From Chiloscyllium plagiosum (Eukaryota), in NCBI RefSeq assembly GCF_004010195.1, contig NC_057749.1:16103831-16167830 (forward strand): 64,000 bases of DNA, written 5' to 3'. Positions 9,165 to 47,659 of the stretch are shown here, piece after piece. Position 1 is the first letter of the stretch. The number at the start of each line of letters is the position of its first letter. A program made the position numbers and the translations under genes. The notes beneath the pieces are model-generated. The model made no database searches and was not told where the DNA came from. It saw only the letters and a program-made list of their open reading frames with translations.

Positions 9165-9204
9165 TGCTTCAAGACAGATTATAGTGGTGTACATGGAGTC
9201 TTCA

Positions 9205-26790: not shown

Positions 26791-27786
26791 CAATCTTTTC
26801 ACATCCGACAGACATTTGGGATGTGGGTGGACCCTCCACATAGGCCACTGAGTGTCTCGAATCACTTCTGCCATTCAATAAGATCATGGCTGATCCTATT
26901 TCTTCTCAACCAGTCTGCAGTTTTTGACACAGTTGAGTGTATCATTCTCCTCCAAAGCCTCTCCACCATTGGCAAACTGTGGGGGGGAGGGAGGCGGTGG
27001 GGATTGCTCTCATCTCGATTCATTCTCATCTACTACATATAGAAAGAAAGTTCATTATGGCTTCTCTTCTGCTAAACCCTGACTTCTGAAGTCCTCATGG
27101 TTCCCCCTTCCAACTCTCCCAGCCACATTAATATCAGCATTTGGTCTGATTTCGGGTAACAGAAAAGTGATTGTAAAAATTTTCTACAGGATTTGAAAAT
27201 GTTCCTGTCACATCCAGCACTCTTGAACAAATCTTGTGAATCCTTAATTCATCTGTTTTGTTCACTGGTATCGACCTGACTTGCAAATGTGCCTGACCCA
27301 CAACCCTGATCCAAGAGACTGAAGGATCTATGTAACGTCTAACCAACATGGTGCTGAAACCAGGGCTCAGTCTGTGTGCCAAGGTCACTATTCATTACAA
27401 CCTTTATTAAACTTTTAAAACCACTAAACATTCATTGCACAATCAAGTTTTGGAATGTATCTCCAGCAGTATTCAGCTTGCAAGTATTCCAATGCATGCC
27501 ACATTCTAATTAAATTCTTATGAACTACTAATAACATACCAGTCTCAACACTATTTTATGCAAATTAGAAAAATGCAATTGAGAACTGATGAGGGTGAGC
27601 AGAAGCATAAGACGTCAGAGTGGCAAACAAAGGGACCTTTTGAAAAGATAAAATCAAGTAAGCAATATCTTTGAATAGTGGATGCCTTAGGACTCACAGC
27701 ACTTCCCTGTCTTTGGAACTCACATCATTCACATCTTTCTACCTTCAGTCTTCTTGCTGCTGTTCTTCCTGCAGGTTGTTCTGAAA

Positions 27787-27929
27787 ATGGCCAGCACTTC
27801 CTTTTTAACCAACAGGAGGACCATTGGCACCCTCATGTTACTGGGGGCTGGCTCTCTGGCCAATGGGTTCTTACTCACAAGGGATTATATGAAAGCAAGG
27901 GCAAAACAGAGGAAATTGTATCCTCCCAG
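27787..27929 (+). CDS. ckmt1-like: Coding exon 1: mitochondrial transit peptide and mature N-terminus ([30 protein letters not shown]...RKLYPPS)
   Basis: aaaATGG Kozak context. GAGSLAxGFLL matches the CKMT1 presequence. Donor AG|gtaag at 27930. Acceptor ttcttcctgcag| ends at 27774. Confidence 0.93.
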
Positions 27930-30900
27930 GTAAGAAAAATATTTACATCTATATAGTTAAAAATCATACAACACCAGGTTATAGTCCAACAGGTTTAATT
28001 GGAAGCACACTAGCTTTCGGAGCGACGCTCCTTCATCAGGTGATCATGACTACATCTATATAGTTTTTTTTCGACAACTGAATGATTCAAAGCACTCTAC
28101 ACTAAATGAGGTATTTGGAAATATAGTCACTGTTGTGGTGTAGCGAACACAGCAGCATTAATCACACTCCAGTCAGCAAGGTGCTAAAGAGAAGGCAATT
28201 AGTTTTTGTTATGTTGATTCAGAGATAGGTATTTGCTCGGATACTCTGAAAAACTCACCTGTTCTTTGTCAAAATAGTGCCACAAAACGTTTATATCTAA
28301 GCTGACAGATATAGCCTTGGTTTAACATTGCATGAAGGTGATGCCTCTCCCACAGTGCAGTACCCCTCACTACTGCTCTGACAGTATCATCCTAGTTTTA
28401 AAAAATCACACAACACCAGGTTATAGTCCAGTAAGTTTATTTGGAAGCACTAGCTTTCAGAGCGCTGCTCCTTCATCAGGTGATTGTGGAGAATAAGATT
28501 GTAAGACACAGAATTTATAGCAAAAGTTTACAGTGTGATTTAACTGAAATTATATATTGAAAAAGACCCGGATTGTTTGTTAAGTCTCTCATCTTTTAGA
28601 ATGACCATGTTGGTTTCAGTTCTTTCATATGTAAATCGCAAAACTTTTTTTACAAGTTATATTCTCAAGTGCACTTTAACAATTGGTGTCATGTCAGCCC
28701 AGATAAGGTATTGAAGGTGTTAACTCCTTGTGAGGCTGTCTGTGCCACAATGGTCAGACTGATTGTAATCTAAAAATCAGATTTACAGAATCTTACATGG
28801 ATTCATGCAGTTTTTGAGCAAAGTAAAATGTAATTCTGCAAGTACAAATTCACCCCACAAACTTATATGTGTATGTGTCATGTGGGTGTGGAGGAGTGGG
28901 GGGTGGGGGTGGAGGTGGTTATGAGTGTCTGTGAGAGGGTGTATGTATGTGTGTGAGTATGAATGTAAAGGGGTTTAAGTCTGTGAAAGGATGTGTGTGT
29001 GAGTGTATGAGAGAGGGTGTGTGTGTATGTGTGTGTGTATATAGTGCAATGGAGGTCACCTATGGTGACCGTCTCCAAATCATCCTAGATTATGTGCTCA
29101 AATCCTAGAATCCATAATCCTGGGATTCAGGTGTAAGGACCAAGTTTAGGCCTATAGAACAAAAATGTGGGATTTTGGTCAGTGAAACTTTCTACAGCTA
29201 CTGGCCAGTTCTCCAGGGAACAAAAAACTTTGAATTTCAGAATTACAGATTGAGCACACTGCCAGTTAACATGGAAATAAATATTTGAGATCATTAATAA
29301 TAACATTTATTGCATTGCATGTTGTATTTTGACAATAGTAAAAAAATTACCCCCATTTTTAAAACCTACTTCTTTAACAAAGATATTTCCCACCCATCCT
29401 AACATCACCTTTGACTCATTGTCAAATCTTGCACTGATTACATTCCCATTAAGTCTCCTTTTGTATCACATTAAAGGTGCTATACATTAAAGGTGCTATA
29501 GAAATACAAATATTGTTGTGGGTGTATATTTATTCTACATTATGCTCTCAGTGCAGAATATCCTGATCTCCAAAAGCACAACAGCTACATGGCAACTTAC
29601 CTGACCCCTGATTTATATGCCAAACTTCATGATAAATCTACATCCAGTGGCTGGACACTGGATCAGTGCATTCAGACTGGAGTGGACAATCCTGGAGAGT
29701 CCATAGGAATAATAGCAGGAGATGAAGAATCATATGCAGTAAGTATAACTGTACTGTGAATATGGCCACTGAAAATACACAGAAAATACTCACATAGTGC
29801 ACAACAAAATCTGTCTATTCCAGGGGAGCATATTTGGATAAACTCAGCCTTGTGTTAGCCAGCCATGATTGCTTCACTTACCTTGTTGTTGTTTGCACTC
29901 TTCCTGAAAGCAAAGCTACCCTGAACTATGACCTCCACCTGGGTTTCTGAGGAAACATATGAATATCCAAAGTTGACAAATGGATCATCAAACCTATCCC
30001 ACTCTTCACTGACCAGAACACAAGGCATTTCTTTTCTTCTGTGAGTCATTGGGTGGGCAACTGATCCACAGGAAATTAATTCATAACCAATGTGCATCAA
30101 AATCCTTTAGAAAATATAATTCAGTAGCACCAGAGAGGTGAAGGAGCACAAGCTGCATTAGGCTCTAGATGTAAAAGGGAATAAATTATTGCTGTAAATA
30201 TCATAATACTGTAAGAGTAATGTATAAGAATAATGTTATAGAGTAATATAATATTACAATAGATTATCAGCAGGAGGTTAGACTGGATCAGGTGGACTTT
30301 GTGGAGAAAAACACTACAGCTGAATGGCTCACCTTTATTCTATAACTTCAGGAGCAGGAAAATGTGGATTGGACACAGCTATTTGAAGGGAAGTCCACAT
30401 TTGAGATGTGGGAGGCTTTCAAAGATAGGTTAACGGTAGTGCAGGATAGGCATGTCCCATTGAAGGCAAAGGATAGGAAAGGCAAGATTCGTGAACCGTG
30501 GATGACAGGAGAAATTGTATGACTAGCCAAGAGAAAAAGGGAAGCGTACATAAGGTCTAGGCAGTTAAGAACAGAACGGGCCCTGGGGAATATCAGAAGA
30601 GTAGGACAAGTCTTAAACAAGGAATCAAGCAGGCTAAAAGAGGTCATGAAATAGCTTTAGCGAGCAGAATTAAGGGAAATCCCAAAGCATTTTATTCTTA
30701 TATAAGAAGCAAGCGGGTAACTAGAGAAAGGATTGGTCCACTAAAAGATAATGAAGGAAGGCTGTGTGCCAAGGGTTGGTGATGATTCGCCATGGCAGAT
30801 TCGCTGCCGATGATTAGCCACTGCCAGTTCTCCACCAGCGTTTCTCCACTGGGGTCGTTTGACCTCTGGAGACTATTTGCTACTGGAAATATATATATGT

Positions 30901-33900
30901 AGTGATTGTTTTCCCTCCCGCCTATTCTTTCATACTTCTCAGTCCCCTTTATTTATACAATTACATACTACGTATTGATAACAAAGAGATAAAATAAATA
31001 TCATTTATTGGTTTATATATAAAATTGAGTTACAAACTTTAACCAGAAAAAGGAAATATATTTTAAAAATCTTTATAATGGCAGTAAAATCTCACATTAA
31101 TATTAAACAGTGAAATTTCAGTTCATTTGATAGTTATGCACTATTCCTCTAAGATATTCCAAACAATCTCTTTCACCATATTCAAGAACAACGCAACGCA
31201 AACACTACCTTAACCAATATAATGACAATTTTATATAGTTTAGATATGCTTGTTCTCTAACATTTTAAACTTTGTAAAATTTTTAAAAATCTATTAACAA
31301 AAATAAATGGTTATTAAAACAAGTAAACGCTACCACCAATATTCAAAATATTGCGGTGGCGAATCGTCTTCAGTGGCCAATGGGCGGTGGCTAAGCGTCC
31401 TCGGTGAACAATGGGCAGTGGCTAATCGTCGGCGGCGAATCTGCTGTGGCGAATGGTGCCATCCCGGTGTGCCAAACCTGAGAGAGTGGGTGAGATTCTG
31501 AATGTTTACTTTGTATCAGTGTTACTGAGGAGAGGAACATGATGAATCTTGAGACTAGAGATAGAAGTTTGATTAGTCTGGATCACGTTGGCATAAGTAG
31601 GGAAGATGTGTTAGGTATGCTAGAGGATATTAAGGTGGACAAATCCTCAGGACCGGATGGGATCTATCCCAGGTTGCTGAGGGAGATGAGAGGGGAAATT
31701 GCTGGGGCCCTGACAGACATCTTTGTGGCATCCTTAAATACAGGTGAGGTGCCGGAGGACTGGAAGGTTGCTCATGTTGTCCTCCTGTACAAGAAGGGTA
31801 GTAGGGATATTCCAGGTAACTACAGACCATTGAGCCTGACGTCGGTGGTGGGGAATTGCTGGTGAGGGGACTGAGAGATAGGCTCTATTTATATTTAGAA
31901 AAGAATGAGCTTATCAGTGATAGGCAACATGGTTTTGTGCGGGGGAGTTCATGCCTTACCAACTTAATACAGTTCTTCGAGGAAGTGACCAAGTTGTTAG
32001 ATGAAGGAAGGGCTGTTGATGTCATATACATGGACTTTAGTAAGGCGTTTGATAAGGTTCCCCATTGTAGACTAATGGAGAAAGTGAAGTCACATGGTGT
32101 GCAGGGTGTTCTAGCGAGGTGGATAAAGAACTGGTTGAGCAGCAGGAGATAGGGAGTAGTAGTTGAAAGGAGTTTCTCAAAATGGAGAAAGGTGACCAGT
32201 GGTGTTCCACAGGGGTCAGTGTTGGGGCCACTGTTGTTTGTAATATACATAAATGATCTAGAAGGGGACACTGTTGGTATGATCAGCAAGTTTGCAGATG
32301 ACACAAAGATTGGTGTAGTAGCAGAAAGCATCAGGGACTGTCAGAGAATACAGGTGAATATAGACTGGAGAGTTGGGCGGAAAAGTGGCAGATGGCTTTC
32401 AATCCAGACAAATGTGAGGTGATGCATTTAGGCAAGTCTAATTATAGAGTGAATTATACAATGAATGGAAGAGCCTTGGGAAAAGTTGATGGGCAGAGAG
32501 ATCTGGGAGTGCAGGTCCATTGTACCCTGAAGGTTGCTGCACAGGTGGATAGAGTGCTCAAGAAGACATATAGTATGCTTGCCTTCATTGGACGGGGTAT
32601 TGAGTAAAAGAGCTCGCAAGTCATGTTAAAATTGTACAAGATGTTGGTTCAGCTGCATTCAGAATACTGTGTACAGTTCTGGTCGCCACATTACCAAAAG
32701 GATGTGGACGCTTTGGAGAGGATGCAGAGTAGGTTTACGAGGATATTGCCTGGTATGGAAGGTGCTAGCTATGAAGAGAGGTTGAGTAGATTAGGTTTAT
32801 TTGCACTAGAAAAAAGGAGATTGAGGGGGGACCTGATTGAGGTTTACAAAATCATGAAGGGTATAAAGTTAAAAATCACACAACACCAGGTTATAGTCCA
32901 ACAGGTTTAATTGGAAGCACTAGCTTTCGGAGCGTCACTCCTTCATCAGGTGATTGTGGAGGGCTCGATCGTAACACAGAATTTATAGCAAAAATTTGCA
33001 GTGTGATGTAACTGAAATTATACATTGAAGAATTGATTGTCTGTTAAGCCTTTCATCTGTTAGAATACAGTGACAGTTTCACTTATTTCATTTGTAAATC
33101 ACAAAACCCTTTTTTTTAAAATTGCATTCTCGGGTTAGCTGTTAACAATGGTGATAACTAGACAATATGNNNNNNNNNNNNNNNNNNNNNNNNNNNNNNN
33201 NNNNNNNNNNNNNNNNNNNNNNNNNNNNNNNNNNNNNNNNNNNNNNNNNNNNNNNNNNNNNNNNNNNNNNNNNNNNNNNNNNNNNNNNNNNNNNNNNNNN
33301 NNNNNNNNNNNNNNNNNNNNTGTGTGTGTGTGTGTGTAGGAATATGTGAGAGTGTGTGTGTGTAGTGCAATGGTGATCACCTGTAATGTGACATGAACCC
33401 AAGGTCCCGGTTGAGGCCCTCCCTATGGGTACCGAACTTAGCTATCAGCCTCTGCTCGGCCACTTTCCTCTGCTGCCTGTCCTGAAGTCCACCTTGGACT
33501 TCGTGGTCCAGGACATTCAGCGTCGGACCTTCGGGTGACCATCCTCCAAGGTGGACTTCGGGAAGGAGGATGGACAGGTAGGACAGTCCAAGAGTGTGGT
33601 GCTGAGTTGGAGAGTTGGATCTGGGATGAGGTGGAGGGGAAGGGAGATGAGGAAGCTGGTGAAATTGATCCCGTATAGTTGGAGGGTCCAAAGGTGGAAG
33701 ATGAGGCATTCTTCCTCTCGGCGTCGGGTGGCTAGGCAGTGGAGGAGGCCCAGGACTTGCATGTCCTTGGCGAAGTGGGAGGGTGAGTTAAGTGTTTGGC
33801 CATAGGGCGGTGGGGTTGTTTAGTGCATGTGTCCCAGAGATATTCTCTGAAACGTTCTGGAAGTTGGCATCCTGTCTCTCCAATGTAGAGGAGAAGACAT

Positions 33901-36900
33901 CAAGAACAAGGGACACAGTAGATGATGTATGTGGAGGTACAGGAACGTCTGTCAGATGTGGAAGGATCCTTTGGGGCCTTGGATGAAGGTGAGGGTGAAG
34001 GTGTGGACACAGGTTTTACACCTCTTTCTCCACTGAACATGCTGAGCTCTTTGGTGCTGCTAACACTTGCTAACAATGTCACCTCCAACCATGCAGGTTT
34101 TTGCTGATATATTCGACCCTGTGATTAGAGAAAAGCACAATGGATACGATCCGAAGATCATGAAACATGTCAAAGATTTGGATGCAAGTAAAGTGAGTAG
34201 AAGCCAAACTGCTATATTCGTATTCAGTTTCTGAAAACAGAGCATTGTCTGCAAAGCTAACATTACTGGAAAACAGAACATAGATGACAGAACAGTACAA
34301 CACAGAAACAGGTTCTTCAGCCCACCACAATCCCATCTGCCTGTACATGATCCATATCCCTCTTTAGCCTGCCTGTTCATGTGTCTATCTAAATGCCTCT
34401 TAAACATTGCTATTGTATCTGCTTCTATCACCTCCCATGACAGTGCTTGTCAGGCACCTCTTTGTAAAAATCTTAACTCACACATCTCATTTAAATTTTC
34501 CACCCTCACCTTAAATCTCTGCCCCTTAATATTTGACATTTCTACCCTGGGAAAAAGACTCCAACTATTCATGCCTCTCATAGTTTATATATTTCTAATA
34601 AGTTGGCCCTCAGCCTCTGATGCTGTAGCATAAATAATCCAAGTATGTCCAATCTTTCCTGATAGCTAATACATTCCAATCCAGACAACGCCTGGTAAAC
34701 CCCCTTGCACCTTCTCTGAAGCCTCCACACCCTTCCCATACTGCAGCAACCAGAACTGCACACAACACTCCAAATGTAGCTTAACTAAAGTTTTATACAG
34801 CTGCAAAATGACCTGCCAACTTTTATACTCAAAGTACCAAGTGATGAAGGCAAATATGCCATATGTCATCTTATCCATTTGTGTTGCCACTTGCAGGAAG
34901 CTATGGACTTGCACCCCAAAATAACATGGAAGCAGCCAAGATAGTGGAAGCTTGAAACAGCTTGGCTGCTTAGCCATTGTTCTCAATGTGCTTTGGTAGG
35001 AAGAATAGAGGAGCAGAATATTATTTAAATGGAGAAACACTGCAGAAAGTTGCATAACCAAGGGATTTGGGAATCCTCATGCATAACTCAGAAAAGGCTA
35101 TCATCCAAGATCAGAAGGTAATAGGGAAGGCAATAGAATTTTGGCCTTATTTCAAAGGAAGTGGTACATAAAATAACGAAATCTTGCTAAAGCTATATAA
35201 GGCACTAGTTACACCACAGGATATTGTCAACAGATTTGGTTCCCTCTGTAAAGAAAGATTCACTGGCATTGGAAACAGTCTAGAAAAATTTCACTAGGTT
35301 GATTCTAGGTATTCCTTCTTACAAGAGGTTGAGTAGGTTAGACCTGTAATCATTAGAGCTTAAGAGAATGAGAAGTGGCCTTATTGAAACATATAAAATT
35401 CTTAAGGGGCTTGATAGAATAGATGCAGTGAAGTTGTTCCCCTTGTGGAACAGTCTAGGACCAGAGAGCATAATTTCACAGTAAGTGATCACCCATTTAA
35501 GAGATAAGAAGAATTTCTTCTCGAAGAGAGTAGGTATTCTTTACCATAGAGCGCTGTTGGGGCTCTATGGTGGTTACTAATAAACAAGGCTGAGATAGAC
35601 AGATTTTTAACCATAAGAAAATAAAGGGTTATAAGGAAAATGCAGGACGGTGGAGTTGAGGATTATCAGATCAACCATGATCTTATTGAGAAGTCTGTAC
35701 GTGATTTGTACGAAGGAATCAATTGGACCAACAGTGGAAATAAAAATTTACAGATAAAACATGAAATGCTGACTGTATTTTTTTTTGTTAGGTATTGAGC
35801 AAAGTCAAGGGGAAACAGGTGGGTAATGGCAATTCACTGTATTTTAATCCAGGCTATTGCTTCAGGTTATAGGATCAATGGCAGCTGCAGAATCCAGAAT
35901 AGAAAGTTAGTTTTAGCGATAGCAATCCGACATGTGATCCCAGACCCACTACAACGTGAGTGAATCTTACCTGCCCTCTGGAAGGCAAACCATTCATTTC
36001 AAGGGAAATTACTTGTGAGCGATGAATCTCTAAAAATAATTTTAAAATCTACCCCCCAGAGGCAGACTTTGTAAAGATTCCAGGCTCAACTATATAGAAA
36101 GCCTGTTAATAAACTGGAAATGGTGCAAAAAAGATTTATAAGGGTGTTTCTGAGACTGGAGGGTTTGCGTTATAAGGAGAGGCTGAATGGGCTGGGGCTT
36201 TTTTTCCTGGAACATAGGAGGCTGAGGGGTGACCTTGTAAAGGTTTATTAAAAAATCATGAGGAGCATGGATAAAGGTGTTTTCCCCAGGGTGGGGGAAT
36301 CCAAAACTGGAGGGCATAGGGTTTAAGATGAGAGGGGAAAGATTTAGAAGGGACACGAGGGACGTTTTCACACAGAGGGTGGTGTGTCTATGGAATGAGC
36401 TGCCGGAGGACATGGTACAGGTGAGTACAATTACAACATTTAAAAGACACTTGTATAGGTATGTTGATAGGAAAGGTATAAAATAATCTGAGCCAAATGC
36501 AAGCAGACGGGACTAGTTCAGTTTTGAAAACCTGGTTGACATGGACAAGTTGAGCAGCAGGGGTCTGTTTCCGTGCCAATAACTCTATGACTCTAATATT
36601 GAGGGAATAAAAGGAAAATACAGCAGATGTTGGAGATCTGAAATTAAATCAGAAAGTGTTGATGAAATTCAACAGGTCTGGCAGTGTCTAAGAAGAGAAA
36701 AACACAGTTAACATTTTTGAGTCTGATACAACTTGTCTTGAGCCAACATTAACAACGTTTCTCTCTTCAGTGTTGCTACGAAACTTGTATTTTCCAGCAC
36801 TTCTTGTTTTTATTTCAACACTGAGGAATAGTGTCACAAAAAAACTGGCTCAGTTAAGCACAAACTATGAAGTTTCCTATCTTTGTTTCCTTTACAGATT

Positions 36901-39900
36901 AGGAATGGACAGTTTGATGAAAACTATGTTCTTTCCTCACGTGTCAGGACTGGTCGAAGTATTCGAGGACTCAGCATGCCTCCTGCCTGCACTCGGGCTG
37001 AGAGGAGAGAGGTGGAGAGGGTGACTGTTGAGGCATTAGCTGGATTAAAGGGAGATCTAGCTGGAAAATACTACAGTCTGAGCAGTATGACAGATAAAGA
37101 GCAGCAACAGCTCATTGATGTAAGACAATGAACCACAATTCATCTTGGTTAGAAGGAACTGGCTGGTGCAGTGACCAGTGGCTTCCACACTAGCATTTCC
37201 AATGTGTCCTGAATGTTTCTTATATCTGCAAGGATTCAATATTGTAAGATTTTGTTAAATAATCACCAAGCTCCTGGGACCCTGCAGTATCGCACTGTCC
37301 CTCATTCTATGTGAATTGACAAAAAACATTCAGAACACTGTTGGTCAGTACAGATAGAGCTCTACTCTGTCTAGCTTTGGTCTAACTAACCTTGAAGTAT
37401 TTGATGGAAACAGTTGTTATGACCCACTTAAGAAAGTCTGTTGATTCTCAAGCCCCACTATTTTCAGGGTCACCACAACAATTAATGATTTAATCAAAGT
37501 AGGAAAAGTCCCAAAATATCTGCCTGGAGGAATCAGGATCTGGCACTTAATGCGAACTACAGTTTATTTCAAAAAGATATGTTTTAGCCAAATTATGAGC
37601 TATCAATTCTAACCCCCTTTTTGAACCCCTACACCCACCATACACAGAGTGGGACAAACAAAGAAAAAAAATTGGAATCACAGTTTAATTTTCCTGGTCG
37701 ACAGACGTCAAGAATGCAGTCCTTTTCTCTTCCCAAGTGTTTCTCTTCTGCTAATTCCTTCCTTCCAGATTCTCAGTTATTTGTCACAGACACAGGGGAT
37801 TTACACTTCAATTGTTAATTTCACAGTTAGAGGAAACAACTGACAGTAAATGAGAGGAGAGAATAGTTGACAATCTTAAAGTTTGGGTTATTTGGCTACA
37901 GAGAGATATGGACATATCCTGCTTCTTCCAGTCTTAAAACCTTTGGTCCCTGTGTCAATTCATCCCTAGTCATTGGCTTTAGAAATAGTTATTTTCTACT
38001 TTAGATCACAATCAATTAGTCAGAGAAATAATAAGATGCGGCCTCCACATGTCTCCAATTCCCACACCTGCAGAGGTCATCATGAAGGTCCATCCTCTCC
38101 AACGCGTTCCTTGCCTGAGATATATTGACTCTCAGGTTAAACCACCACTAGTTGTCTCTATGTAATGAGAGAGAAAGACTATGGTCCTTTGGGACTATTG
38201 CAACTTTACCTTGTACCTTTATATATCGTTACACAAAAAAAAATGCAGTCTTTATACATGTGTACAGGAAACTTTACTCTATATCTTAATCTCATGTTGT
38301 ATATCTTTCTATAGGATCACCTCTTGTTTAACAAACCAGCATCACCTTTCCACTTGTCTTCAGGGATGGCCAGGGATTGGCCCGATGCTCGGGGCATTTG
38401 GTAAGTTTGGATTCAGGAAAAAGGAGAGGATTGTGGCCAGGAAGGAAGGTAAACATGAAGTTTGCAATACTGAATTCCAAAACATCTGGAGATCTGAAAG
38501 TAATGCAGGTCAGCAGAGACAAGGTGGTGCAGGAAAATGATCATGCCAAGATGAGTGTTTCTGGGTCTAAATACAAGTGATGTTTTAAAAATAACCAAAC
38601 CATTCTGTTCCCACGTATCTACAGGTATAATAATGAGAAGACTTTCTCAATCTGGATCAATGAGGAGGACCATATTCGAATTATCTCCATGGAAAAAGGC
38701 GGTAACATGAAGAAAGTGTTTGAGAAATTCTGCCGGGGTCTCAAAGAGGTAAACAGTTATAAGAGCAACCGATCCATTAGGATCCTCCCGCCACTGTTGC
38801 ACAATCTGGAGCAGGCTATTCAGCCCAACATATCTGTCCGGGCTGTTTGAGAAAGTTATGCTGTTAGTCCTAATATTGAAGCCCCTCATCCTAACTCCCT
38901 CCTCACACAGCCCTGTAAATTTTCCCCTTTCAAATGTACCTCCAATTTTAACAGAATAAAAATAAGACCTATTTCAGAAGGAAACATTTCTCCACTAGAC
39001 ACCTTACCTCCTCCTCACTTTTACAAGCTGCCTTTTGTTTCAGTCACTTCCTCTTGAAACTTTGATTTATCCTGCTTCTTTGTTACTTTTGATGAAAATT
39101 GTTGAATTTTCCATGTTTTCCTGGCTTTTCTGTGCCTCATTGTTGAGCATTCATTAACATATGGAGTGGTTCAGGTGAATAGTATAGATTACATTTCGGG
39201 GAAAACGAGTGAACAAACTGAAGAGAAAGGAATGGAGAATGTTATCTTGATGGGGTTAGGTGAAGGTGAAAGGGGGCTGGGAAATCTGGTGTAGACAATA
39301 AGCTGCAGCACAAAATCAAATGCCCTGTTTTCATATTGTACACTCAATGTAACTCTATGACTCCATTCATCCTTGCCACTGTTAGAAAAACAGAATACAA
39401 TGCTGAGATTTGAAACAAAAATGTTTTTTCCAGATTGAGAAACTTATCGCTGAGAAAGGCTGGGAGTTTATGTGGAATGAGAGAATTGGCTACATCCTGA
39501 CATGCCCATCAAACCTGGGCACTGGACTCCGAGCTGGGGTACACATCAAACTACCCATGCTCAGCAAGGTACCAGCTCAATCTCATTTTCCAACTGGGCT
39601 TCAATTCTAATGGACATCATTTACTCTCCATTGTACATGACGCTGAAATCAGTTAGTCCTGATACACAAAACATTCGCAAACTACATGCTGAGAATACCA
39701 GTGAAAGGAAAGGGAATAAGGTAGGTCTCTCTCCTTTAGACGATGATAGAGAACTCCTTGTGAAATTAAGTGACAAATTAGGGGGCTGAGATTCCACAGG
39801 GATTCCTGCTCACAAGAAACAAAACAGAGGCTGCTTTAACATGGAACAGGACTAAACAGAACCTGACATGAACAGCCCACAGGTTAGCTGGTATAAGAAA

Positions 39901-42688
39901 TGGTAATGATCACAAAGACATTACAAGAGTTTGACTGGGGTAAGGGCTGGGGCTCATTGAAGAGGACAGTGCAGAAGGAGCTTTACTGTGCATTGTATCT
40001 CATGCTGTCCCTGCCCTGGGAGTGTAAAAGGAGCTTTACTCTGTCTCTAACCCAGCGCTGTCCCTGTTTAATGAAGACAGTAGAGAGGGAGTTTTACTAT
40101 GTCCAAGTTGTCTTGGGAGTTATTGAAATAAAAATTTTTCTTACCTGGTAGTGAAGCCTCTTGCTGTAACGAGCAGAAAACCACACAGGGAAAAAAAACC
40201 TCTCAAAATTAGAAGAGCCGATGGTATATGTTGACTAGTAGAGTAGAAGGACTGCCATAGATGCAATTACATTACACATACCACAGTATAAAGGGTGTAT
40301 GGTAGGAGTGACCAATGCACAGTGCTTGTGGACACCATTTCCTGTCTTCTCTTTGAGGATACACTCCATCATGCCGTGTGGCACTATCACCTTTATAACT
40401 GGGGTGGAAGAGGTCTAGTAACTCAAGACTGGGCATCTATGAGACTGTGGGCGATCAGCAAAAACAGGACTGCACTCAAACATAATCTGTAACCTCATAG
40501 TCCAGCAGATCCCTCACTGTATCATTACTATCAAGCTACAGGACCAAGTTTGTTCCATTAAAAATGTGAAAGGAGTTGCCGGATGTTCTCATGGAATACA
40601 GGGAGAACTAGCCATTTGGATACAGAACTGGCTCAAAGATTGAAGACAGAGGGTGGTGGTGGAGGGTTGTTTTTCAGACTGGAGGACTGTGACCAGTGCA
40701 GTGCCATAAGGAACGGTGCTGGGTCCTCTACTTTTTGTCAGTTACATAAATGATTTGGATGCGAGCATAAGAGGTACAGTTAGTAAGTTTGCAGATGACA
40801 CCAAAATTGGAGGTGTAGTGGACAGCGAAGAGGGTTACCTCAGATTACAACAGGATCTGGACCAGATGGGCCAATAGGCTGAGAAGTGGCAGATGGAGTT
40901 TAATTCAGATAAATGCGAGGTGCTGCATTTTGATAAATCAAACCTTAGTAGGACTTATACACTTAATGGTAGGGTCCTAGGGAATGTTGCTGAACAAATA
41001 GACACTGGAGTGCAGGTTCCTAGCTCCTTGAAAGTGAAGTCGCAGGTAGATGGGATAGTGAAGAAGGNNNNNNNNNNNNNNNNNNNNNNNNNNNNNNNNN
41101 NNNNNNNNNNNNNNNNNNNNNNNNNNNNNNNNNNNNNNNNNNNNNNTTATGAGAGGCATGGATAGGATAAATAGACAAATTCTTTTCCCTGGGGTGGGGG
41201 AGTCCAGAACTGGAGGGCACAGGTTTAGGGTGAGAGGGAAAAGATATAAAAGAGACCTAAGGGGCAACTTTTTCACGCAGAGGGTGGTACATGTATGGAA
41301 TAAGCTGCCAGAGGATGTGGTGGAGTCTGGTACAATTGCAACATTTAAGAGGCATTTTGGATGGGTAATGAATAGGAAGGGTTTGGAGGGATATGGGCCG
41401 TGTGTTGGCAGGTGGGACTAGATTGGGTTGGAATATCTGGTCGGCATGGACGGGTTGGACCGAAGGGTCTGTTTCCATGCTATACAACTCTATGACTCTA
41501 TACTATCGGGCATAGCCAAAAATGAGGTGTCAATCTGATGGTGCCACAAAGAGGGCTGTTTCGCCTTTCAAACAGCATAAGCAGCAAGTGATAAACAAAG
41601 CTAACAAATTCCTCAATCAACAAGTCAGATCTAAGCTCAGCAATTCTGCCACATCCATTTGCAAATAGTGGACAATTAAACAATTCAATAGAGGAGTAGG
41701 TTCCACAAATATTCCCATTCTTAACAATGGGGGACCCCAGCATTTCATTGCAAAGGATAAGGCTGAGGCAGCCACAACAATCTTAACTTAGTCTTTGGCC
41801 AATGCAATTCACTCCACTTGATATCAAGGAAAGGCAGAAGACACTGAATACTGCAAAGGGTGCTGACAATATTTCAATATTAGTACTGAAGATTTACTCT
41901 CCAAAATGTGGCATACCCTGTAGCCATACTGTTCTAATACAACTGCAATACCGGTATTAATCTAACAATGTTGGACTATAACCTGGTGTTGTGTGATTTT
42001 TAATTTGGATGTTAACAGACAGCTTTTTGTTTGATAGAAGCTCCCTGTTATCTTTAATTTCTGATTCAGGATCCTCGCTTCCCGAAGATCCTGGAGAACC
42101 TGCGACTGCAGAAACGAGGGACAGGGGGAGAGGACACCGAAGCTGTGGACAGCGTGTTTGATATCTCAAACCTGGACCGTCTGGGGAAATCTGAGGTGAG
42201 TTACCACAGTTTATTATACAGTGGTTATGTAATGGGGAAGGCACAAGGGGGCAGTAGGGGAGAGAAAAGTGTACATGAATAGGTTTCCTTGAAGGGATCT
42301 CGAGATAACAAAGGGAGAATTTGTGGGAGGGGTCAGGATTCATTGGGGAAGTGAAGGGGGGAATACAGGGAAATTGGAACAGAAGAAGGGGAGGATATCA
42401 GTTCAGGGATAGATTTCCTTTGGGAAGTGAAGGAAGGATCAAGCATGGCAATTGGACGGGAAAAGAGGCATGGAGAGGGGATTATCTTTCCAAAACAAAA
42501 ATAGGATTCTCCCTCCCCCTTTTGATAATGTAAAAGTCTAATCTTGAATGTCTTGTTCCTTTCTTCAGGTGGAGCTTGTTCAATTAGTGATTGATGGAGT
42601 CAACTATTTAATTGAGTGTGAGAAGAGACTCCAGCAAAGTCACGATATCCAAATCCCACCCGCCCTACGCATAAACAGTTACCATTGA
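27787..42688 (+). CDS. ckmt1-like: Mitochondrial creatine kinase U-type-like phosphagen kinase, 9 coding exons, 412 aa, divergent substrate pocket
   Basis: Hand-spliced exons 27787-27929, 29552-29738, 34097-34192, 36898-37119, 38315-38400, 38625-38748, 39434-39568, 42070-42195, 42569-42688 total 1239 nt in one open frame with GT-AG introns. U-type diagnostic strings: [50 protein letters not shown]. Confidence 0.96.
27959..28050 (-). mobile_element. 92-bp Penelope terminal fragment with hammerhead core, in intron 1
   Basis: 15-bp TSD tacatctatatagtt (27944-27958 and 28051-28065). Minus strand reads cac-CTGATGA-aGGAGC-gtc-GCTCC-GAAA-GCTA-gtg. Confidence 0.85.
28396..29078 (-). mobile_element. 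Penelope 3' UTR fragment with hammerhead core and TG microsatellite
   Basis: 10-bp TSD atcatcctag (28386-28395 and 29079-29088), same terminus as 27959. Confidence 0.85.
29552..29738 (+). CDS. ckmt1-like: Coding exon 2 ([19 protein letters not shown]...[20 protein letters not shown])
   Basis: ctctcag| acceptor and |gtaagt donor. 187 nt, 12 nt shorter than the equivalent human CKMT1 segment. Confidence 0.95.
30350..32865 (+). mobile_element. CR1 LINE ORF2 fragment, interrupted by a DNA transposon
   Basis: ORFs 31539..32910 with [40 protein letters not shown] and FADD. Confidence 0.93.
30773..31466 (-). mobile_element. Non-autonomous Mutator/MULE-like DNA transposon
   Basis: 9-bp TSD gtgtgccaa (30764-30772 and 31467-31475), ~55-bp imperfect TIRs built of ttcgcc/ggcgaa repeats, internal remnant [21 protein letters not shown] (31118-31195, minus). 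Confidence 0.8.
32866..33559 (-). mobile_element. Penelope 3' end with hammerhead core (32921-32949), spans a gap
   Basis: [33 protein letters not shown]-terminus, same terminus family as 28396. Confidence 0.85.
33560..34026 (-). repeat. Near-identical copy of the Penelope segment starting at 25871
   Basis: Long stretches read base-for-base identical with only scattered differences. Confidence 0.85.
34097..34192 (+). CDS. ckmt1-like: Coding exon 3 ([32 protein letters not shown])
   Basis: catgcag| acceptor with upstream gctaac branch-like motifs, |gtgagt donor, 96 nt. Confidence 0.95.
34280..35690. mobile_element. Two decayed CR1 fragments (minus 34280-34920, plus 34990-35690)
   Basis: [17 protein letters not shown] on minus, degenerate CR1 C-terminus and tail on plus. 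Confidence 0.8.
36110..36596 (+). mobile_element. CR1 3' end
   Basis: [14 protein letters not shown], tail ctctatgactct. Confidence 0.88.
36898..37119 (+). CDS. ckmt1-like: Coding exon 4 ([24 protein letters not shown]...EQQQLID)
   Basis: tttacag| and |gtaag, 222 nt, seen in ORF 36883..37131. Confidence 0.97.
38315..38400 (+). CDS. ckmt1-like: Coding exon 5 ([29 protein letters not shown])
   Basis: ttctatag| and |gtaagt, 86 nt, [13 protein letters not shown] motif. Confidence 0.96.
38625..38748 (+). CDS. ckmt1-like: Coding exon 6 ([41 protein letters not shown])
   Basis: tctacag| and |gtaaac, 124 nt, catalytic NEED motif at 38659-38670. Confidence 0.96.
39434..39568 (+). CDS. ckmt1-like: Coding exon 7 ([45 protein letters not shown])
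   Basis: ttttttccag| and |gtacc, 135 nt, CPSNLGT signature with reactive Cys at 39503-39505. Confidence 0.97.
40585..41500 (+). mobile_element. CR1 LINE 3' portion (spans a gap)
   Basis: [13 protein letters not shown] and [15 protein letters not shown], tail ctctatgactct. Confidence 0.92.
42070..42195 (+). CDS. ckmt1-like: Coding exon 8 ([42 protein letters not shown])
   Basis: ctgattcag| and |gtgagt, 126 nt. Confidence 0.96.
42569..42688 (+). CDS. ckmt1-like: Coding exon 9 ([39 protein letters not shown])
   Basis: ctttcttcag| acceptor, TGA at 42686-42688. Confidence 0.95.
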
Positions 42689-42700
42689 GATGTATATCTC

Positions 42701-42706
42701 ATTAAA
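42701..42706 (+). terminator. Candidate polyadenylation signal ATTAAA
   Basis: First poly(A) hexamer after the stop, just before an antisense CR1 3' end. Confidence 0.4.
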
Positions 42707-42708
42707 CA

Positions 42709-43880
42709 TAGAGTCATAGTCATACAGATGTACAGCACGGAAACAGACTCTTTGGTCCAACTCGTCCATGCCAATCACATATCCTAACCTAGTCTAGTCC
42801 CATTTGCCAGGTCTTGGCCCATACCCTATTCATAAACCCTTCCAGATGCCTTTAAATGTTGCAATTGTATCAGCCTCCACCACTTCCTCTGGTAGCTTAT
42901 TCCATACACACACCACCCTCTGTGTGAAAATGTTGTCCTTTAGGTCCCTTTTATATCTTTCGCCTCTCTCCCTAAACCTATGCCCTCTAGTTCTGGACTC
43001 CCCGACCCCAGGGAAAAGACTTTGACTATTTACCCTATCCATGCCCCTCAATATTTTATAAACCTCTATAAGGTCCCCCCTCAACCTTCGACACTCCAGG
43101 GAAAACAGCCCCAGCCTATTCAGTCTCTCCCTATAGCTCAAATGCTCCAACCCTGGCAACATTCTTGTAAATCCGTTCTGAATCCTTTCAAGTTTCACAA
43201 CATCCTTTCAATAGGAAGGAGACCAGAATTGCACGCAGTATTCCAAAAGTGGCCTAACCAATGTCCTGTACAGCCGCAACATGACCTCCCAACTCCTGTA
43301 CTCAATACTCTGACCAATAAAGGAAAGCATACCAAACACCTTCTTCACTATCCTATCTATCTGCGACTCTACTTTCAAGGAGCTATGAACCTCCACTCCA
43401 AGGTCTCTTTGTTCAACAACACTCTCTAGGACCTTATCATTGAGTGTAAAAGTCTTGCTAGGATTTGCTTTTCCAAAATGCAGCACCTTGCATTTATCTG
43501 AATTAAACTCCATCTGCCACTTCTCAGCCCATTGGTCCATCTGATCAAGAACCCATTGTAATCTGAGGTAACCTTCTTTGCAATCCACTACACCTCCAAT
43601 TTTGATATAATCTGCAAACTTACTAACTATACCTCCTATGTTCACATCCAAACTGTTTATGTAAAAGACAAAAAGTAGTGACCCAGCACTGATCCTTGTG
43701 GCATTCCACTGGTCACAGGCCTCCAGTCTGAAAAACAACTCTCCACCTTCTGCCTTAAAGCCAGTTTTGTATCCAAATGGCTAGTTGTCCCTGTGTTCCA
43801 TGAGATTTAACCTTGCTAACCAGTGTCCTATGGAAAACCTTGTAGAACACCTTACTGAAGTCCATATAGATCACGTCCAC
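42709..43880 (-). mobile_element. CR1 LINE 3' portion
   Basis: ORFs 42830..43198 and 43208..43738. Confidence 0.93.
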
Positions 43881-47159: not shown

Positions 47160-47659
47160 NNNNNNNNNNNNNNNNNNNNNNNNNNNNNNNNNNNNNNNNN
47201 NNNNNNNNNNNNNNNNNNNNNNNNNNNNNNNNNNNNNNNNNNNNNNNNNNNNNNNNNNNNNNNNNNNNNNNNNNNNNNNNNNNNNNNNNNNNNNNNNNNN
47301 NNNNNNNNNNNNNNNNNNNNNNNNNNNNNNNNNNNNNNNNNNNNNNNNNNNNNNNNNNNNNNNNNNNNNNNNNNNNNNNNNNNNNNNNNNNNNNNNNNNN
47401 NNNNNNNNNNNNNNNNNNNNNNNNNNNNNNNNNNNNNNNNNNNNNNNNNNNNNNNNNNNNNNNNNNNNNNNNNNNNNNNNNNNNNNNNNNNNNNNNNNNN
47501 NNNNNNNNNNNNNNNNNNNNNNNNNNNNNNNNNNNNNNNNNNNNNNNNNNNNNNNNNNNNNNNNNNNNNNNNNNNNNNNNNNNNNNNNNNNNNNNNNNNN
47601 NNNNNNNNNNNNNNNNNNNNNNNNNNNNNNNNNNNNNNNNNNNNNNNNNNNNNNNNNNN

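What the first reader, a model, noticed from the sequence alone, without database searches (positions are those of the whole stretch)
27787..42688. A CKMT1-derived vertebrate phosphagen kinase that appears to have abandoned creatine (lombricine/taurocyamine-kinase-like signature)
Seen: an intact 412-aa spliced ORF with CKMT1 exon structure. It retains the NEED motif, CPSNLGTG, the five phosphate-binding arginines (SSRVR, DHIR, GLRAG, QKRG) and a transit peptide. Three separate exons each carry a change at a specificity determinant: a 4-aa loop deletion, R96K and V325E (muscle CK numbering). Established: His66/Ile69, Arg96 and Val325 are near-invariant in creatine kinases. A short loop plus Glu325 marks arginine, lombricine and taurocyamine kinases. 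Lys at position 95/96 is typical of annelid lombricine kinase and mitochondrial taurocyamine kinase. Vertebrates are generally held to use only phosphocreatine. Inference: changes clustered in the guanidino pocket on a conserved scaffold suggest convergent neofunctionalisation towards a larger, non-N-methylated guanidine. Taurocyamine is one plausible substrate, and this would imply an unrecognised mitochondrial phosphagen system in sharks. I cannot tell from sequence alone whether it has been reported.
Basis: partly seen in the sequence, partly recalled or inferred. Interest (0 to 1): 0.96.

Follow-up and report, generated by a model that had tools for sequence, protein, structure and literature searches.

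The report
Rewired mitochondrial creatine kinase paralogue
A bamboo-shark gene copied from mitochondrial creatine kinase is intact and transcribed, but the residues that recognise creatine are replaced by those used by kinases of other guanidine compounds, so some vertebrates may have a second, unrecognised energy-buffer enzyme.

Summary
Window 27787-42688 (+) holds an intact 9-exon, 412-aa gene (all introns GT-AG), identical to a database protein labelled "creatine kinase U-type, mitochondrial-like". It carries the 4-residue loop deletion, R96K and V325E.

New here:
- A canonical CKMT1 copy (full loop, Arg96, Val325) lies about 31 kb downstream on the same strand.
- The two copies are old (dS about 0.8 in exons 1-3, 5, 9). 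Exons 4 and 7 with their flanking intron are 97-100% identical, which indicates gene conversion.
- A spliced transcript contig matches exons 1, 2, 4 and 6 almost exactly.
- Glu325 copies also occur in horn shark, skates, sawfish, eels and frogs. They share changes at columns invariant in 31 canonical MtCKs and still avoid most invariant columns.
- In printed PDB alignments, Glu at this position is seen in arginine, taurocyamine and glycocyamine kinases, and Val in creatine kinases.

Best reading (about 0.5): a functional mitochondrial phosphagen kinase retuned to a guanidine without the N-methyl group. The substrate is unknown and taurocyamine is untested. Rivals are an altered creatine kinase, a non-catalytic subunit, or decay. 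Five literature searches found no report. This is a new variant of a known kind and of high interest, but the biochemistry is unproven.

The parts
27787..27929 (+). Coding exon 1: start codon and N-terminal presequence (residues 1-47 and two bases of codon 48).
   Evidence: It aligns with the presequence of the canonical copy. pLDDT is below 50 for residues 1-34. A transcript contig of run X1 covers 27773-27926 with 0 differences.
29552..29738 (+). Coding exon 2: N-terminal domain and guanidino-specificity (GS) loop, with a 12-nt in-frame deletion (site at about 29694-29699, Gly96-Glu97).
   Evidence: Exon length is 187 nt against 199 nt in the canonical copy. There is a 4-residue gap against CK chains. 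An X1 contig covers 29549-29738 with 0 differences.
34097..34192 (+). Coding exon 3, holding Lys123 (= CK Arg96), codon 34133-34135 AAG.
   Evidence: The canonical copy has AGA (Arg).
36898..37119 (+). Coding exon 4 (SSRVRTGRS phosphate-binding arginines). Its DNA is identical to exon 4 of the canonical copy.
   Evidence: 0 of 222 nt differ. There is a second 100% match in the genome.
36852..37322 (.). Gene-conversion tract 1: exon 4 plus 46 bp of upstream and 203 bp of downstream intron, 99.4% identical to the canonical copy.
   Evidence: blastn. Elsewhere the introns do not align and the exons are 71-84% identical.
38315..38400 (+). Coding exon 5 ([29 protein letters not shown]). It carries five changes at canon-invariant columns.
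38625..38748 (+). Coding exon 6 with the NEEDH catalytic motif (residues 257-261), followed by Ile where canonical copies have Thr.
   Evidence: An X1 contig covers 38624-38745 with 1 difference.
39434..39568 (+). Coding exon 7 with CPSNLGTG (39503-39526) and GLRAG.
   Evidence: 3 of 135 nt differ from the canonical copy.
39141..39901 (.). Gene-conversion tract 2: exon 7 plus about 290 bp and 330 bp of flanking intron, 96.6% identical to the canonical copy.
   Evidence: blastn.
42070..42195 (+). Coding exon 8: C-terminal specificity loop [13 protein letters not shown], with Glu352 (= CK Val325 = arginine kinase Glu314), codon 42130-42132 GAG.
   Evidence: An X1 contig joins 39566 to 42068 (GT..AG) and covers 42068-42195 with 1 difference.
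42569..42688 (+). Coding exon 9 and stop codon. The C-terminal tail is changed ([14 protein letters not shown] against DIKIPAPIAQSRR).

Best explanation
This is a transcribed, selectively maintained tandem paralogue of the mitochondrial creatine kinase gene CKMT1. It keeps the whole phosphoryl-transfer machinery and the mitochondrial presequence, but its guanidine-binding pocket has been rebuilt.

In creatine kinase, Ile69 and Val325 form a hydrophobic pocket for the N-methyl group of creatine. Here Val325 is Glu, the residue that in arginine kinase (Glu314) binds the guanidinium. A glycocyamine kinase and a taurocyamine kinase also carry Glu at this position. The His66-Pro-Phe-Ile69 stretch of the specificity loop is deleted, which gives the loop length of arginine kinases. 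Arg96 is Lys, as in lombricine kinase and mitochondrial taurocyamine kinase.

The likely result is an enzyme in the mitochondrial intermembrane space that disfavours creatine and phosphorylates a guanidine without the N-methyl group. Guanidinoacetate is the simplest candidate for the wider Glu325 class. A bulkier substrate such as arginine, taurocyamine or a guanidino acid is possible for the short-loop bamboo-shark form.

Shown: gene structure, tandem arrangement, gene conversion, splicing, conservation, and the residue states. Inferred: catalytic activity, substrate and cellular location.
For: - Intact gene. All catalytic and phosphate-binding motifs are present. Both Pfam domains match at E 7.7e-79 and 5.1e-31. 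The AlphaFold2 model has mean pLDDT 90.3, and its top fold matches are MtCKs with TM 0.87/0.97.
- Tandem paralogue. A canonical CKMT1 with the same exon phases lies downstream on the same strand. dS is 0.78 with omega 0.21 in exons 2, 3, 5 and 9, against dS 0.012 in exons 4 and 7. The conversion tracts include intron sequence.
- Asymmetric but constrained change. 47 changes fall on this copy's lineage against 7 on the canonical lineage, and 21 of the 47 are at columns invariant in 31 canonical MtCKs. Variation within E-type clades avoids the invariant columns: 6 of 18 (p 0.017), 30 of 76 (p 1e-4), 26 of 66 (p 3e-4) and 11 of 56 (p 3e-10), against 61% expected.
- Transcription. A 952-nt contig of run X1 lies on exons 1, 2, 4 and 6 with 0-1 differences and skips the introns. 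A 475-nt contig joins exon 7 to exon 8 at GT..AG.
- Recurrence. Glu325 is in all 13 E-type rows from sharks, batoids, eels and frogs. They share further changes in both specificity loops, in the [11 protein letters not shown] segment and next to NEED.
- Meaning of Glu. Exon 8 aligns without gaps so that this Glu falls on residue 314 of arginine kinase 1m15. Glu314 binds the guanidino substrate (PMC11492440 passage). Printed alignments show Glu in arginine kinase 4rf6, taurocyamine kinase 4wo8 and glycocyamine kinase 3l2d, and Val in creatine kinases 1crk and 4z9m.
- Family census. Among 248 domains of 150 family representatives, the commonest classes are Glu + 10-residue loop + Tyr96 (27 domains) and Val + 14-residue loop + Arg96 (15 domains). 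This protein is Glu + 10 + Lys.
- Residue 95/96 and loop deletions are reported to track the substrate (PMC3836730 passages).
Against: - No enzyme activity, metabolite or protein-level evidence exists.
- Most Glu325 copies keep a full-length or longer loop and Arg96. The three changes are therefore not one conserved package, and substrates may differ between lineages.
- The residue triple Glu/10/Lys was found in none of the other 248 domains, so no characterised enzyme predicts its substrate.
- Residue 96 is said not to contact the substrate directly (PMC3836730 passage).
- Omega on this lineage is raised (about 0.37 by my apportioning, assuming equal dS on both branches). This also fits partial relaxation.
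- Transcript evidence comes from one run, whose RNA nature is the index's guess. The contigs of X4 and X6 belong to the canonical gene.
- For frogs and eels I could not establish that a canonical CKMT1 coexists with the Glu325 gene (could not be made). If it is their only U-type gene, Glu325 might be compatible with creatine kinase function.
- The mutational data on CK Val325 that I recall (Novak et al. 2004, Biochemistry) could not be read here.
Confidence: 0.5

Rival explanations
1. It is still a creatine kinase. The pocket changes alter kinetics, regulation or stability (for example lower creatine affinity or a different pH or osmolyte tolerance) without changing the substrate. It would serve as the second mitochondrial isoform of a lineage that seems to lack a separate sarcomeric-type gene.
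For: - All catalytic residues are kept.
- Its nearest relatives and fold matches are MtCKs at 74-78% identity.
- No separate S-type MtCK locus was found in the window's genome: the best matches to an S-type query are the two C40 copies (a lower bound).
- Most Glu325 copies keep Arg96 and a CK-length loop.
Against: - Val at 325 was found in 397 of 420 motif instances in 316 fetched CK-family proteins (the set is biased by my queries). It is present in all 31 canonical rows.
- Every named non-creatine kinase whose alignment was printed has Glu there.
- His66 and Ile69 are deleted.
- S-type MtCKs of bony vertebrates keep Val325, Arg96 and the full loop.
Confidence: 0.22
2. It is a catalytically weak or inactive subunit. 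It co-assembles with canonical MtCK (dimer or octamer) or occupies contact sites, and so modulates the canonical enzyme rather than making a phosphagen itself.
For: - The interface-rich core is conserved and partly homogenised with the canonical copy by gene conversion at exons 4 and 7.
- The two genes are tandem.
- The C-terminal tail is changed.
- Another CK-like locus in the same genome (C9) has lost catalytic motifs, so non-catalytic CK relatives may exist in this genome.
Against: - A pseudoenzyme would not need NEED, the CPSN cysteine and all phosphate-binding arginines. All are kept in all 13 E-type rows, apart from conservative changes beside them.
- The changes are concentrated in substrate-specificity elements, and the same Glu recurs.
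- No test of assembly was made.
Confidence: 0.13
3. It is a duplicate on its way to loss. Constraint relaxed after duplication, and the pocket changes are damage that has not yet been followed by frame disruption.
For: - The rate is 47 against 7 changes, and 21 of the 47 hit invariant columns.
- No E-type copy was seen for whale shark, zebra shark, lamniform, carcharhiniform or hexanchiform sharks or for the chimaera in the lists. This is weak: each list was cut at 120 rows.
Against: - Open frames are intact in 12 named species.
- Identity is 96% between Chiloscyllium and Hemiscyllium.
- Within-clade variation is depleted at invariant columns in all five tests.
- Omega is 0.17-0.21 in unconverted exons.
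- The gene is spliced and transcribed.
- The identical Val-to-Glu change recurs in four lineages.
Confidence: 0.05

Closest known systems
Ubiquitous mitochondrial creatine kinase (CKMT1; PDB 1qk1, 9b04, 7u5i)
   Same: It has the same gene lineage, the same nine coding exons and phases, a presequence, and the same catalytic and phosphate-binding residues. Identity is 76-78% and the fold TM-score is 0.85-0.87/0.94-0.96. It sits in tandem with the canonical copy.
   Different: It has Glu for Val325 and Lys for Arg96, and the His66-Ile69 stretch is deleted. It also carries changes at 21 columns invariant in 31 canonical MtCKs.
Glycocyamine kinase of the polychaete Namalycastis (PDB 3l2d/3l2e)
   Same: It is an enzyme of the creatine-kinase clade with KRGTGGE at the 325 position. 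Its substrate is creatine without the N-methyl group. It is 55% identical by fold search.
   Different: Glycocyamine kinase has a loop one residue longer than CK and Ile at position 96. It is an annelid lineage and is not mitochondrial CKMT1-derived.
Arginine kinases, including those close to the CK clade (Anthopleura 4rf6, dimeric sea-cucumber AK 3ju5)
   Same: They have Glu at the 325/314 position and a 10-residue GS loop. 3ju5 is 57% identical. As I recall, not read here, 3ju5 is a precedent for a CK-like scaffold that uses arginine.
   Different: They have Tyr (or Trp in some representatives) at position 96, where this protein has Lys. This protein nests inside vertebrate MtCKs.
Annelid lombricine kinase (3jpz) and mitochondrial taurocyamine kinase
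   Same: They have Lys at position 95/96 according to the literature. Lombricine kinase has the same GS-region length by ungapped coordinates and is 57% identical.
   Different: Their residue at the 325 position was not seen here. They are annelid lineages. Their substrates are not known from vertebrates as phosphagens.

Membership tests
Phosphagen (ATP:guanidino) kinase superfamily | N-terminal and C-terminal catalytic Pfam domains (PF02807, PF00217) | tested here: met
   107.4 and 264.2 bits, against cut-offs of 25.7 and 22.4.
Phosphagen (ATP:guanidino) kinase superfamily | Catalytic Glu (NEED), reactive Cys (CPSN) and phosphate-binding arginines | tested here: met
   NEEDH 257, CPSNLGTG 310, SSRVRTGRS 155, DHIR 260, GLRAG 317, QKRG 345, NLDR 365.
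Phosphagen (ATP:guanidino) kinase superfamily | Two-domain phosphagen kinase fold | tested here: met
   (pLDDT 90.3, pTM 0.87). (97 PDB matches at E<=0.001; all 50 printed rows are phosphagen kinase entries).
CKMT1 gene lineage (mitochondrial creatine kinase genes) | Groups with MtCK genes and shares their exon structure | tested here: met
   it lies inside the chondrichthyan MtCK clade (97*); same nine exons and phases, in tandem with the canonical copy.
CKMT1 gene lineage (mitochondrial creatine kinase genes) | Mitochondrial presequence | tested here: inconclusive
   The N-terminus aligns with the canonical presequence and is disordered in the model. No targeting predictor or experiment was available.
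Creatine kinase as an enzyme (EC 2.7.3.2) | Ile69/Val325 pocket for the N-methyl group | tested here: not met
   Ile69 is deleted. Glu is at 325. The role of the pocket is taken from PMC12387690 passages.
Creatine kinase as an enzyme (EC 2.7.3.2) | Arg at position 95/96 and a full-length GS loop with His66 | tested here: not met
   Lys123. The loop has 10 residues against 14. Arg in CK is according to PMC3836730.
Creatine kinase as an enzyme (EC 2.7.3.2) | Phosphorylates creatine | not testable with these tools
   This needs an enzyme assay.
Arginine kinase | Glu at the Glu314 position and a short GS loop | tested here: met
   (ungapped alignment, query 21 = residue 314 of 1m15). (10-residue loop, Glu).
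Arginine kinase | Tyr at the position-96 equivalent, and membership of an AK clade | tested here: not met
   Lys is present. 27 of the 37 Glu+10-loop domains have Tyr. The protein nests in vertebrate MtCKs.
Lombricine kinase / mitochondrial taurocyamine kinase (annelids) | Lys at 95/96 and a shortened GS region | tested here: met
   Lys123. Literature. Same length as 3jpz by coordinates.
Lombricine kinase / mitochondrial taurocyamine kinase (annelids) | Residue at the 325 position, and annelid clade membership | not tested
   The alignment to 3jpz was never among the printed ones. The protein is plainly a vertebrate MtCK derivative, so at most it works like these kinases and is not a member.
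Glycocyamine kinase | Glu at the 325 position | tested here: met
   3l2d reads KRGTGGESS.
Glycocyamine kinase | Ile at 96 and a GS loop one residue longer than CK | tested here: not met
   for glycocyamine kinase. This protein has Lys and a loop four residues shorter than CK.

The most novel reading that the evidence does not exclude
Several vertebrate lineages (elasmobranchs, eels, frogs) keep a second class of mitochondrial phosphagen kinase. It is derived from CKMT1, protected from homogenisation by selection on its specificity loops, and phosphorylates a guanidine other than creatine: guanidinoacetate in the general case, and something larger in bamboo and epaulette sharks. Vertebrates would then not be restricted to the phosphocreatine system. 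The Glu325 state would be either an ancient tandem paralogue maintained for hundreds of millions of years under gene conversion, or a repeated convergent switch.
Probability: 0.4. Interest if true: 0.9.

Novelty: new variant of a known kind. Interest (0 to 1): 0.82.

Why it matters
Textbooks and reviews hold that creatine kinase is the only phosphagen kinase of vertebrates (PMC6429109 passage). Here a vertebrate enzyme keeps the kinase machinery but carries the pocket residues of non-creatine kinases. It is conserved and transcribed, and counterparts with the same Glu occur in other vertebrate groups.

If its substrate is not creatine, there is an unrecognised mitochondrial phosphagen, or guanidine-metabolising step, in vertebrates. 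It would also be a natural experiment on how phosphagen kinase specificity switches, and a clear case of functional divergence kept up against gene conversion between tandem genes. The question can be tested directly with one recombinant protein and a substrate panel.

Tried and rejected
- a coordinate slip, corrected.
- **First structure model:** built from a 7-row alignment and useless (mean pLDDT 39). It was replaced by an 85-row alignment.
- **Regex census of representatives:** too brittle, replaced by an HMM alignment.
- **Third homology search:** used a 59-residue E-type profile and was crowded by long multi-domain proteins. It gave no new single-domain E-type cluster. The only single-domain E-type rows were seven already known (P0006, P0023, P0042, P0045, P0196, P0094, P0179).
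- **Sequencing-run search:** no RNA holder was listed; the runs laid were 'RNA?' by guess.
- **Laid runs:** for X4, X6 and X8 the pieces listed over the exons carried the canonical gene's letters or lay on the near-identical exons 4 and 7. They give no support for this copy. Parts of the stretch without cover are not interpreted.
- **Papers wanted but not held:** PMC3058953 (lombricine kinase structure), PMC3519428 (glycocyamine kinase structure), PMC21096 (arginine kinase transition state) and PMC4432309 (Schistosoma taurocyamine kinase).
- **Search for V325E, V325A or I69A mutants:** nothing relevant. What I recall of Novak et al. 2004 is unverified.
- **Third cluster look-up:** could not be made because the database was switched off. 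It was meant to show whether frogs and eels with a Glu325 gene also have a canonical CKMT1, so this stays open.
- **The search of earlier findings:** nothing returned.
- **One clade of all 13 E-type proteins:** considered and set aside. It is disfavoured (p-AU 0.045; 0.010 with Ascaphus), though gene conversion could produce the same result.
- **Assembly duplication as the source of the identical exon 4:** considered and rejected. The flanks beyond about 0.5 kb do not align, and the other exons differ by 16-29%.
- **Complex prediction:** not used. I make no binding claim.

Full report
**1.

Three-frame reading and anchor-based mapping give nine coding exons on the + strand between 27787 and 42688. 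All eight introns are GT-AG. The CDS is 1239 nt and encodes 412 aa. The spliced product is letter for letter the stored database protein P0121. NCBI labels P0121 [quoted passage not shown]. Pfam finds both phosphagen kinase domains. The [35 protein letters not shown] and NLDR motifs are all present.

The three claimed changes are present:
- HMMER puts a 4-residue gap in the loop against every creatine kinase chain: GVDNPG....[11 protein letters not shown].
- Codon 34133-34135 is AAG (Lys), where the canonical copy has AGA (Arg).
- Codon 42130-42132 is GAG (Glu), where the canonical copy has GTG (Val).

**2. A canonical copy lies next door, and the pair is a mosaic**

The window's genome holds a second, 100% identical exon 4 about 48.8 kb downstream. 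I fetched 50 kb beyond the window and found a canonical CKMT1 on the same strand. It has [36 protein letters not shown] and RGTGGVDTAAV. Its model has nine exons and 417 aa, with the same phases. Exon lengths are 149/199/96/222/86/124/135/126/117 nt, against 143/187/96/222/86/124/135/126/120 nt in the window's gene. Its start codon lies about 31 kb beyond the stop codon of the window's gene.

Nei-Gojobori distances differ sharply by exon:

| Exon | dS |
|---|---|
| 1 | 0.93 |
| 2 | 0.79 |
| 3 | 0.90 |
| 4 | 0 (0 of 222 nt differ) |
| 5 | 0.85 |
| 6 | 0.34 |
| 7 | 0.03 (3 of 135 nt differ) |
| 8 | 0.40 |
| 9 | 0.66 |

blastn shows that the near-identity extends into the introns. Window 36852-37322 is 99.4% identical and 39141-39901 is 96.6% identical to the canonical copy. 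Elsewhere only the exons align, at 71-84%. This is the signature of gene conversion between old tandem paralogues. It is not an assembly duplicate. In the unconverted exons 2, 3, 5 and 9, dS is 0.78 and omega is 0.21.

**3. It is transcribed and spliced as modelled**

- Of four runs laid, run X1 has a 952-nt contig whose listed pieces lie on 27773-27926, 29549-29738, 36898-37119 and 38624-38745, with 0, 0, 0 and 1 differences.
- The unlisted stretches of that record are 96 and 85 letters long. These are the sizes of exons 3 and 5 (my inference).
- A 475-nt contig joins 39566 to 42068 (GT..AG) and covers exon 8 with one difference. The canonical exon 8 differs at 14 of 126 positions.
- The exon 2 piece includes the 12-nt deletion, so these contigs come from this copy.
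- The index only guesses that X1 is RNA. A contig that skips the introns at the exact splice sites is itself the evidence.
- The listed exon contigs of X4 and X6 belong to the canonical gene: 10 differences in exon 6, and loose ends at 29692, 36898 and 37120 that match the canonical copy's exons 2, 3 and 5 as printed. I do not count them.

**4. Orthologues and a wider class**

I ran three homology searches:
- exon 2 as query, 573 hits among 577 candidates, 120 listed.
- a profile of seven E-type proteins, 3038 hits among 8000 scored, 120 listed.
- a 59-residue profile, 918 hits among 4420, 120 listed.

Together with two cluster look-ups, these gave the following E-type proteins:
- Hemiscyllium ocellatum and Chiloscyllium punctatum have orthologues with all three changes, 96% identical.
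- Heterodontus francisci has two copies with a full-length loop (GQPFVKSIGIV), Arg96 and RGTGGEDT.
- The skates Amblyraja and Rhinoraja and the sawfish Pristis have a loop two residues longer (GHEHSFIKSIGIV), Arg96 and RGPRGENT, RGPQGENT or RGTRGENT.
- The eels Anguilla rostrata and A. anguilla have GQPFVESVGMV with RGSGGEDT or ENT. Synaphobranchus has an independent 4-residue shorter loop (GHTVGIV) with RGPGGENT.
- The frogs Phyllobates and Leptobrachium also carry RGTGGEDT.

Among 420 KRGxxGx motif instances in the 316 proteins fetched by then, 397 have Val, 22 Glu and 1 Arg. That set is biased by my queries. The E-type and canonical proteins sit on contigs of the same length in C. punctatum, Heterodontus, Amblyraja and Rhinoraja, which suggests the same contig. 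No E-type protein appeared for whale shark, zebra shark, basking or white shark, catsharks, Mustelus, Heptranchias or Callorhinchus. Because each list was cut at 120 rows, this is weak evidence of absence.

**5. A recurrent set of changes under constraint**

I compared 13 E-type rows with 31 canonical CKMT1/CKMT2 rows. Columns that are at least 93% conserved in the canonical set but changed in two or more E-type groups cluster in five places:
- the GS loop (His66 to Gln or deleted; Lys, Val72 and Met changed);
- the segment [11 protein letters not shown] (Asp to Asn/His/Glu/Lys, Leu to Phe, and the next Leu changed);
- the residue after NEEDH (Thr to Ile);
- the 320s loop (Val325 to Glu in all 13 rows; Asp326 to Asn in batoids and eels);
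- the N-terminal HNNC motif.

On the bamboo-shark pair, 47 changes map to the E-type lineage and 7 to the canonical lineage, with 4 ambiguous. Of the 47, 21 are at columns invariant in all 31 canonical rows. Yet within the E-type clades, variation avoids those invariant columns, against 61% expected:

| Clade | Variable columns at invariant positions | p |
|---|---|---|
| Hemiscylliidae | 6 of 18 | 0.017 |
| Heterodontus copies | 1 of 6 | 0.033 |
| Batoids | 30 of 76 | 1e-4 |
| Eels | 26 of 66 | 3e-4 |
| Frogs | 11 of 56 | 3e-10 |

The copies evolve faster than the canonical gene but under purifying selection. A deep-alignment AlphaFold2 model is confident (mean pLDDT 90.3, with low confidence only for residues 1-34 and the tail). 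Its best fold matches are the mitochondrial creatine kinases.

**6. One origin or several?**

- The whole-protein tree puts each E-type group beside its own lineage's canonical gene.
- After dropping the presequence and the converted exons 4 and 7, all eight elasmobranch E-type rows form one clade (SH-aLRT 88.9, not starred).
- On the whole mature protein that clade is not rejected (p-AU 0.20).
- When the recurrent columns are also dropped, it is disfavoured (p-AU 0.026), and the skate E-type joins the skate canonical genes (96*).
- One clade of all 13 E-type rows is marginally rejected (p-AU 0.045; 0.010 with Ascaphus).

So the signal that unites E-type genes lies in the specificity elements, and the rest of the protein follows the local canonical gene. 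Two histories fit this. One is an old tandem pair homogenised by gene conversion except where selection protects the differences. The other is repeated duplication with convergent change. Conversion is directly shown in this genome, and the unconverted exons are old (dS about 0.8). I cannot decide between the two without the DNA of the other species. Either history argues for function.

**7. What the changed residues mean**

- A review describes Ile69 and Val325 as the hydrophobic specificity pocket formed by the two mobile loops of creatine kinase (PMC12387690 passages).
- Exon 8 aligns without gaps to arginine kinase 1m15 so that the new Glu falls on residue 314. Glu314 binds the guanidino group of arginine (PMC11492440 passages).
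- In printed alignments the same position is Glu in Anthopleura arginine kinase 4rf6 (both domains), Schistosoma taurocyamine kinase 4wo8 (both domains) and Namalycastis glycocyamine kinase 3l2d (KRGTGGESS). It is Val in creatine kinases 1crk and 4z9m.
- Glycocyamine is creatine without the N-methyl group. Its kinase belongs to the creatine-kinase clade. This is the closest precedent for Glu at this site on a CK-like scaffold.
- Among 248 domains in the 150 best family representatives, the two commonest classes are Glu + 10-residue loop + Tyr96 (27 domains) and Val + 14-residue loop + Arg96 (15 domains). The window's protein is Glu + 10 + Lys, a combination found in no other domain of that set.
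- The literature gives Arg for CK, Ile for glycocyamine kinase, His for cytoplasmic taurocyamine kinase, Lys for lombricine kinase and mitochondrial taurocyamine kinase, and Tyr for arginine kinase at position 95/96. It also relates loop deletions to substrate size (PMC3836730 passages).

**8. Mechanism proposed**

Shown:
- an intact, spliced, conserved tandem paralogue with complete catalytic machinery;
- a pocket whose three known determinants are in non-creatine states.

Inferred:
- Glu352 pairs with the catalytic Glu of NEED to clamp an unsubstituted guanidinium, as in arginine kinase, and penalises the N-methyl group of creatine.
- Loss of His66-Ile69 removes the other wall of the methyl pocket and opens room for a longer substrate.
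- Lys123 retunes the hydrogen-bond network beside the site.

The common denominator of the wider class is Glu325 alone, with a CK-length loop and Arg96. This points to guanidinoacetate as the simplest candidate substrate. The bamboo and epaulette shark form, and independently the eel Synaphobranchus, went further by shortening the loop. I put this reading at about 0.5. The rivals are:
- an altered creatine kinase (0.22). This is helped by the apparent lack of a separate S-type MtCK locus in this genome.
- a non-catalytic or regulatory subunit (0.13);
- decay (0.05).

**9. Novelty**

The protein is in public databases only under an automatic name. Five full-text searches found no paper that describes such a paralogue. 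The term sets were:
- creatine kinase / elasmobranch / paralog;
- phosphagen kinase / vertebrates / shark;
- mitochondrial creatine kinase / cartilaginous fish / gene duplication / CKMT2;
- glycocyamine kinase / vertebrate / evolution;
- CKMT1 / shark.

[quoted passage not shown] The library lacks most subscription journals, so an earlier report cannot be excluded.

**10. Limits**

- There is no biochemistry, no tissue information, and no DNA from the other species.
- Transcript evidence comes from one run.
- Whether frogs and eels also keep a canonical CKMT1 is open (could not be made).
- The per-lineage omega of about 0.37 against about 0.05 is my apportioning, assuming equal dS on both branches.

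Noticed in passing
G000:C40:16177717-16207957 (about 10-40 kb beyond the window's right end; loci L005-L009): Canonical CKMT1 gene: nine coding exons, 417 aa, same strand, in tandem with the gene in the window.
   Followed up: yes
Whole genome G000: A search with a bony-fish S-type MtCK found no separate sarcomeric-type (CKMT2-like) locus. The best matches were the two C40 copies. The other CK-like loci are on C10 (about 39.65-39.67 Mb), C41 (about 6.34-6.355 Mb) and C9. The search is heuristic, so this is a lower bound.
   Followed up: partly
L012-L013 (G000:C9:39660001-39680000), exons at about 2571-14302 of the joined stretch: A divergent CK-like gene, 38-55% identical to the canonical MtCK, with catalytic motifs changed: NKEDH for NEEDH, QVSTGRN for RVRTGRS, KKPTGT for KRGTGG, CPSDLGT for CPSNLGT. 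It may be a pseudoenzyme or a pseudogene.
   Followed up: partly
window 30346-32910, 40562-41420, 42830-43780, and many places in 1-27000 and 43000-64000: Fragments of reverse-transcriptase (LINE-like) ORFs on both strands fill the introns and flanks. No other host gene with long exons was evident in the flanks.
   Followed up: no
window 33170-33320, 41068-41146, 47160-47659: Runs of N (151, 79 and 500 bases), which are assembly gaps. Two lie in introns 2 and 7 of the gene, and none touches an exon or a conversion tract.
   Followed up: yes
window 28830-29085 and 33320-33370: TG/CA-rich microsatellite stretches in introns 1 and 2 (His/Thr/Cys/Val-rich ORF translations). Read laying flagged 28991-29047 and 33321-33367 as skipped repeats.
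   Followed up: no
window 27773 (upstream of the start codon): The X1 transcript contig begins to match at 27773, just after a CAG acceptor, and has 83 further letters that lie nowhere in 27600-43000. This suggests a non-coding first exon further upstream.
   Followed up: no
P0124 (database isoform X2 of the same gene): A predicted 378-aa isoform ends after exon 8 with a short read-through (…GKSEWFYIS) and lacks exon 9. It is unsupported by anything seen here.
   Followed up: no
P0114 (unnamed, JGI/Logan, 407 aa): A protein with an N-terminal extension resembling a presequence. Of single-domain PDB chains it matches Namalycastis glycocyamine kinase best (554 bits). It has the same GNKFYGKKTG loop, Ile at position 96 and KRGTGGEAT, so it is probably a mitochondrial glycocyamine-kinase-like enzyme of an invertebrate.
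   Followed up: partly
P0209 (Ascaphus truei): A divergent CKMT1-like protein that groups with the frog Glu325 proteins. It has an altered loop (NHGHPFSMSVGMV) and VDVSN for FDISN but keeps Val325. It may be an intermediate or a sister state of the frog E-type lineage.
   Followed up: partly
P0327 (representative, 1084 aa, two domains): Both domains combine Lys at position 96, Glu at 325, Asn at 326 and a 15-residue loop. Its origin and function are unknown.
   Followed up: no
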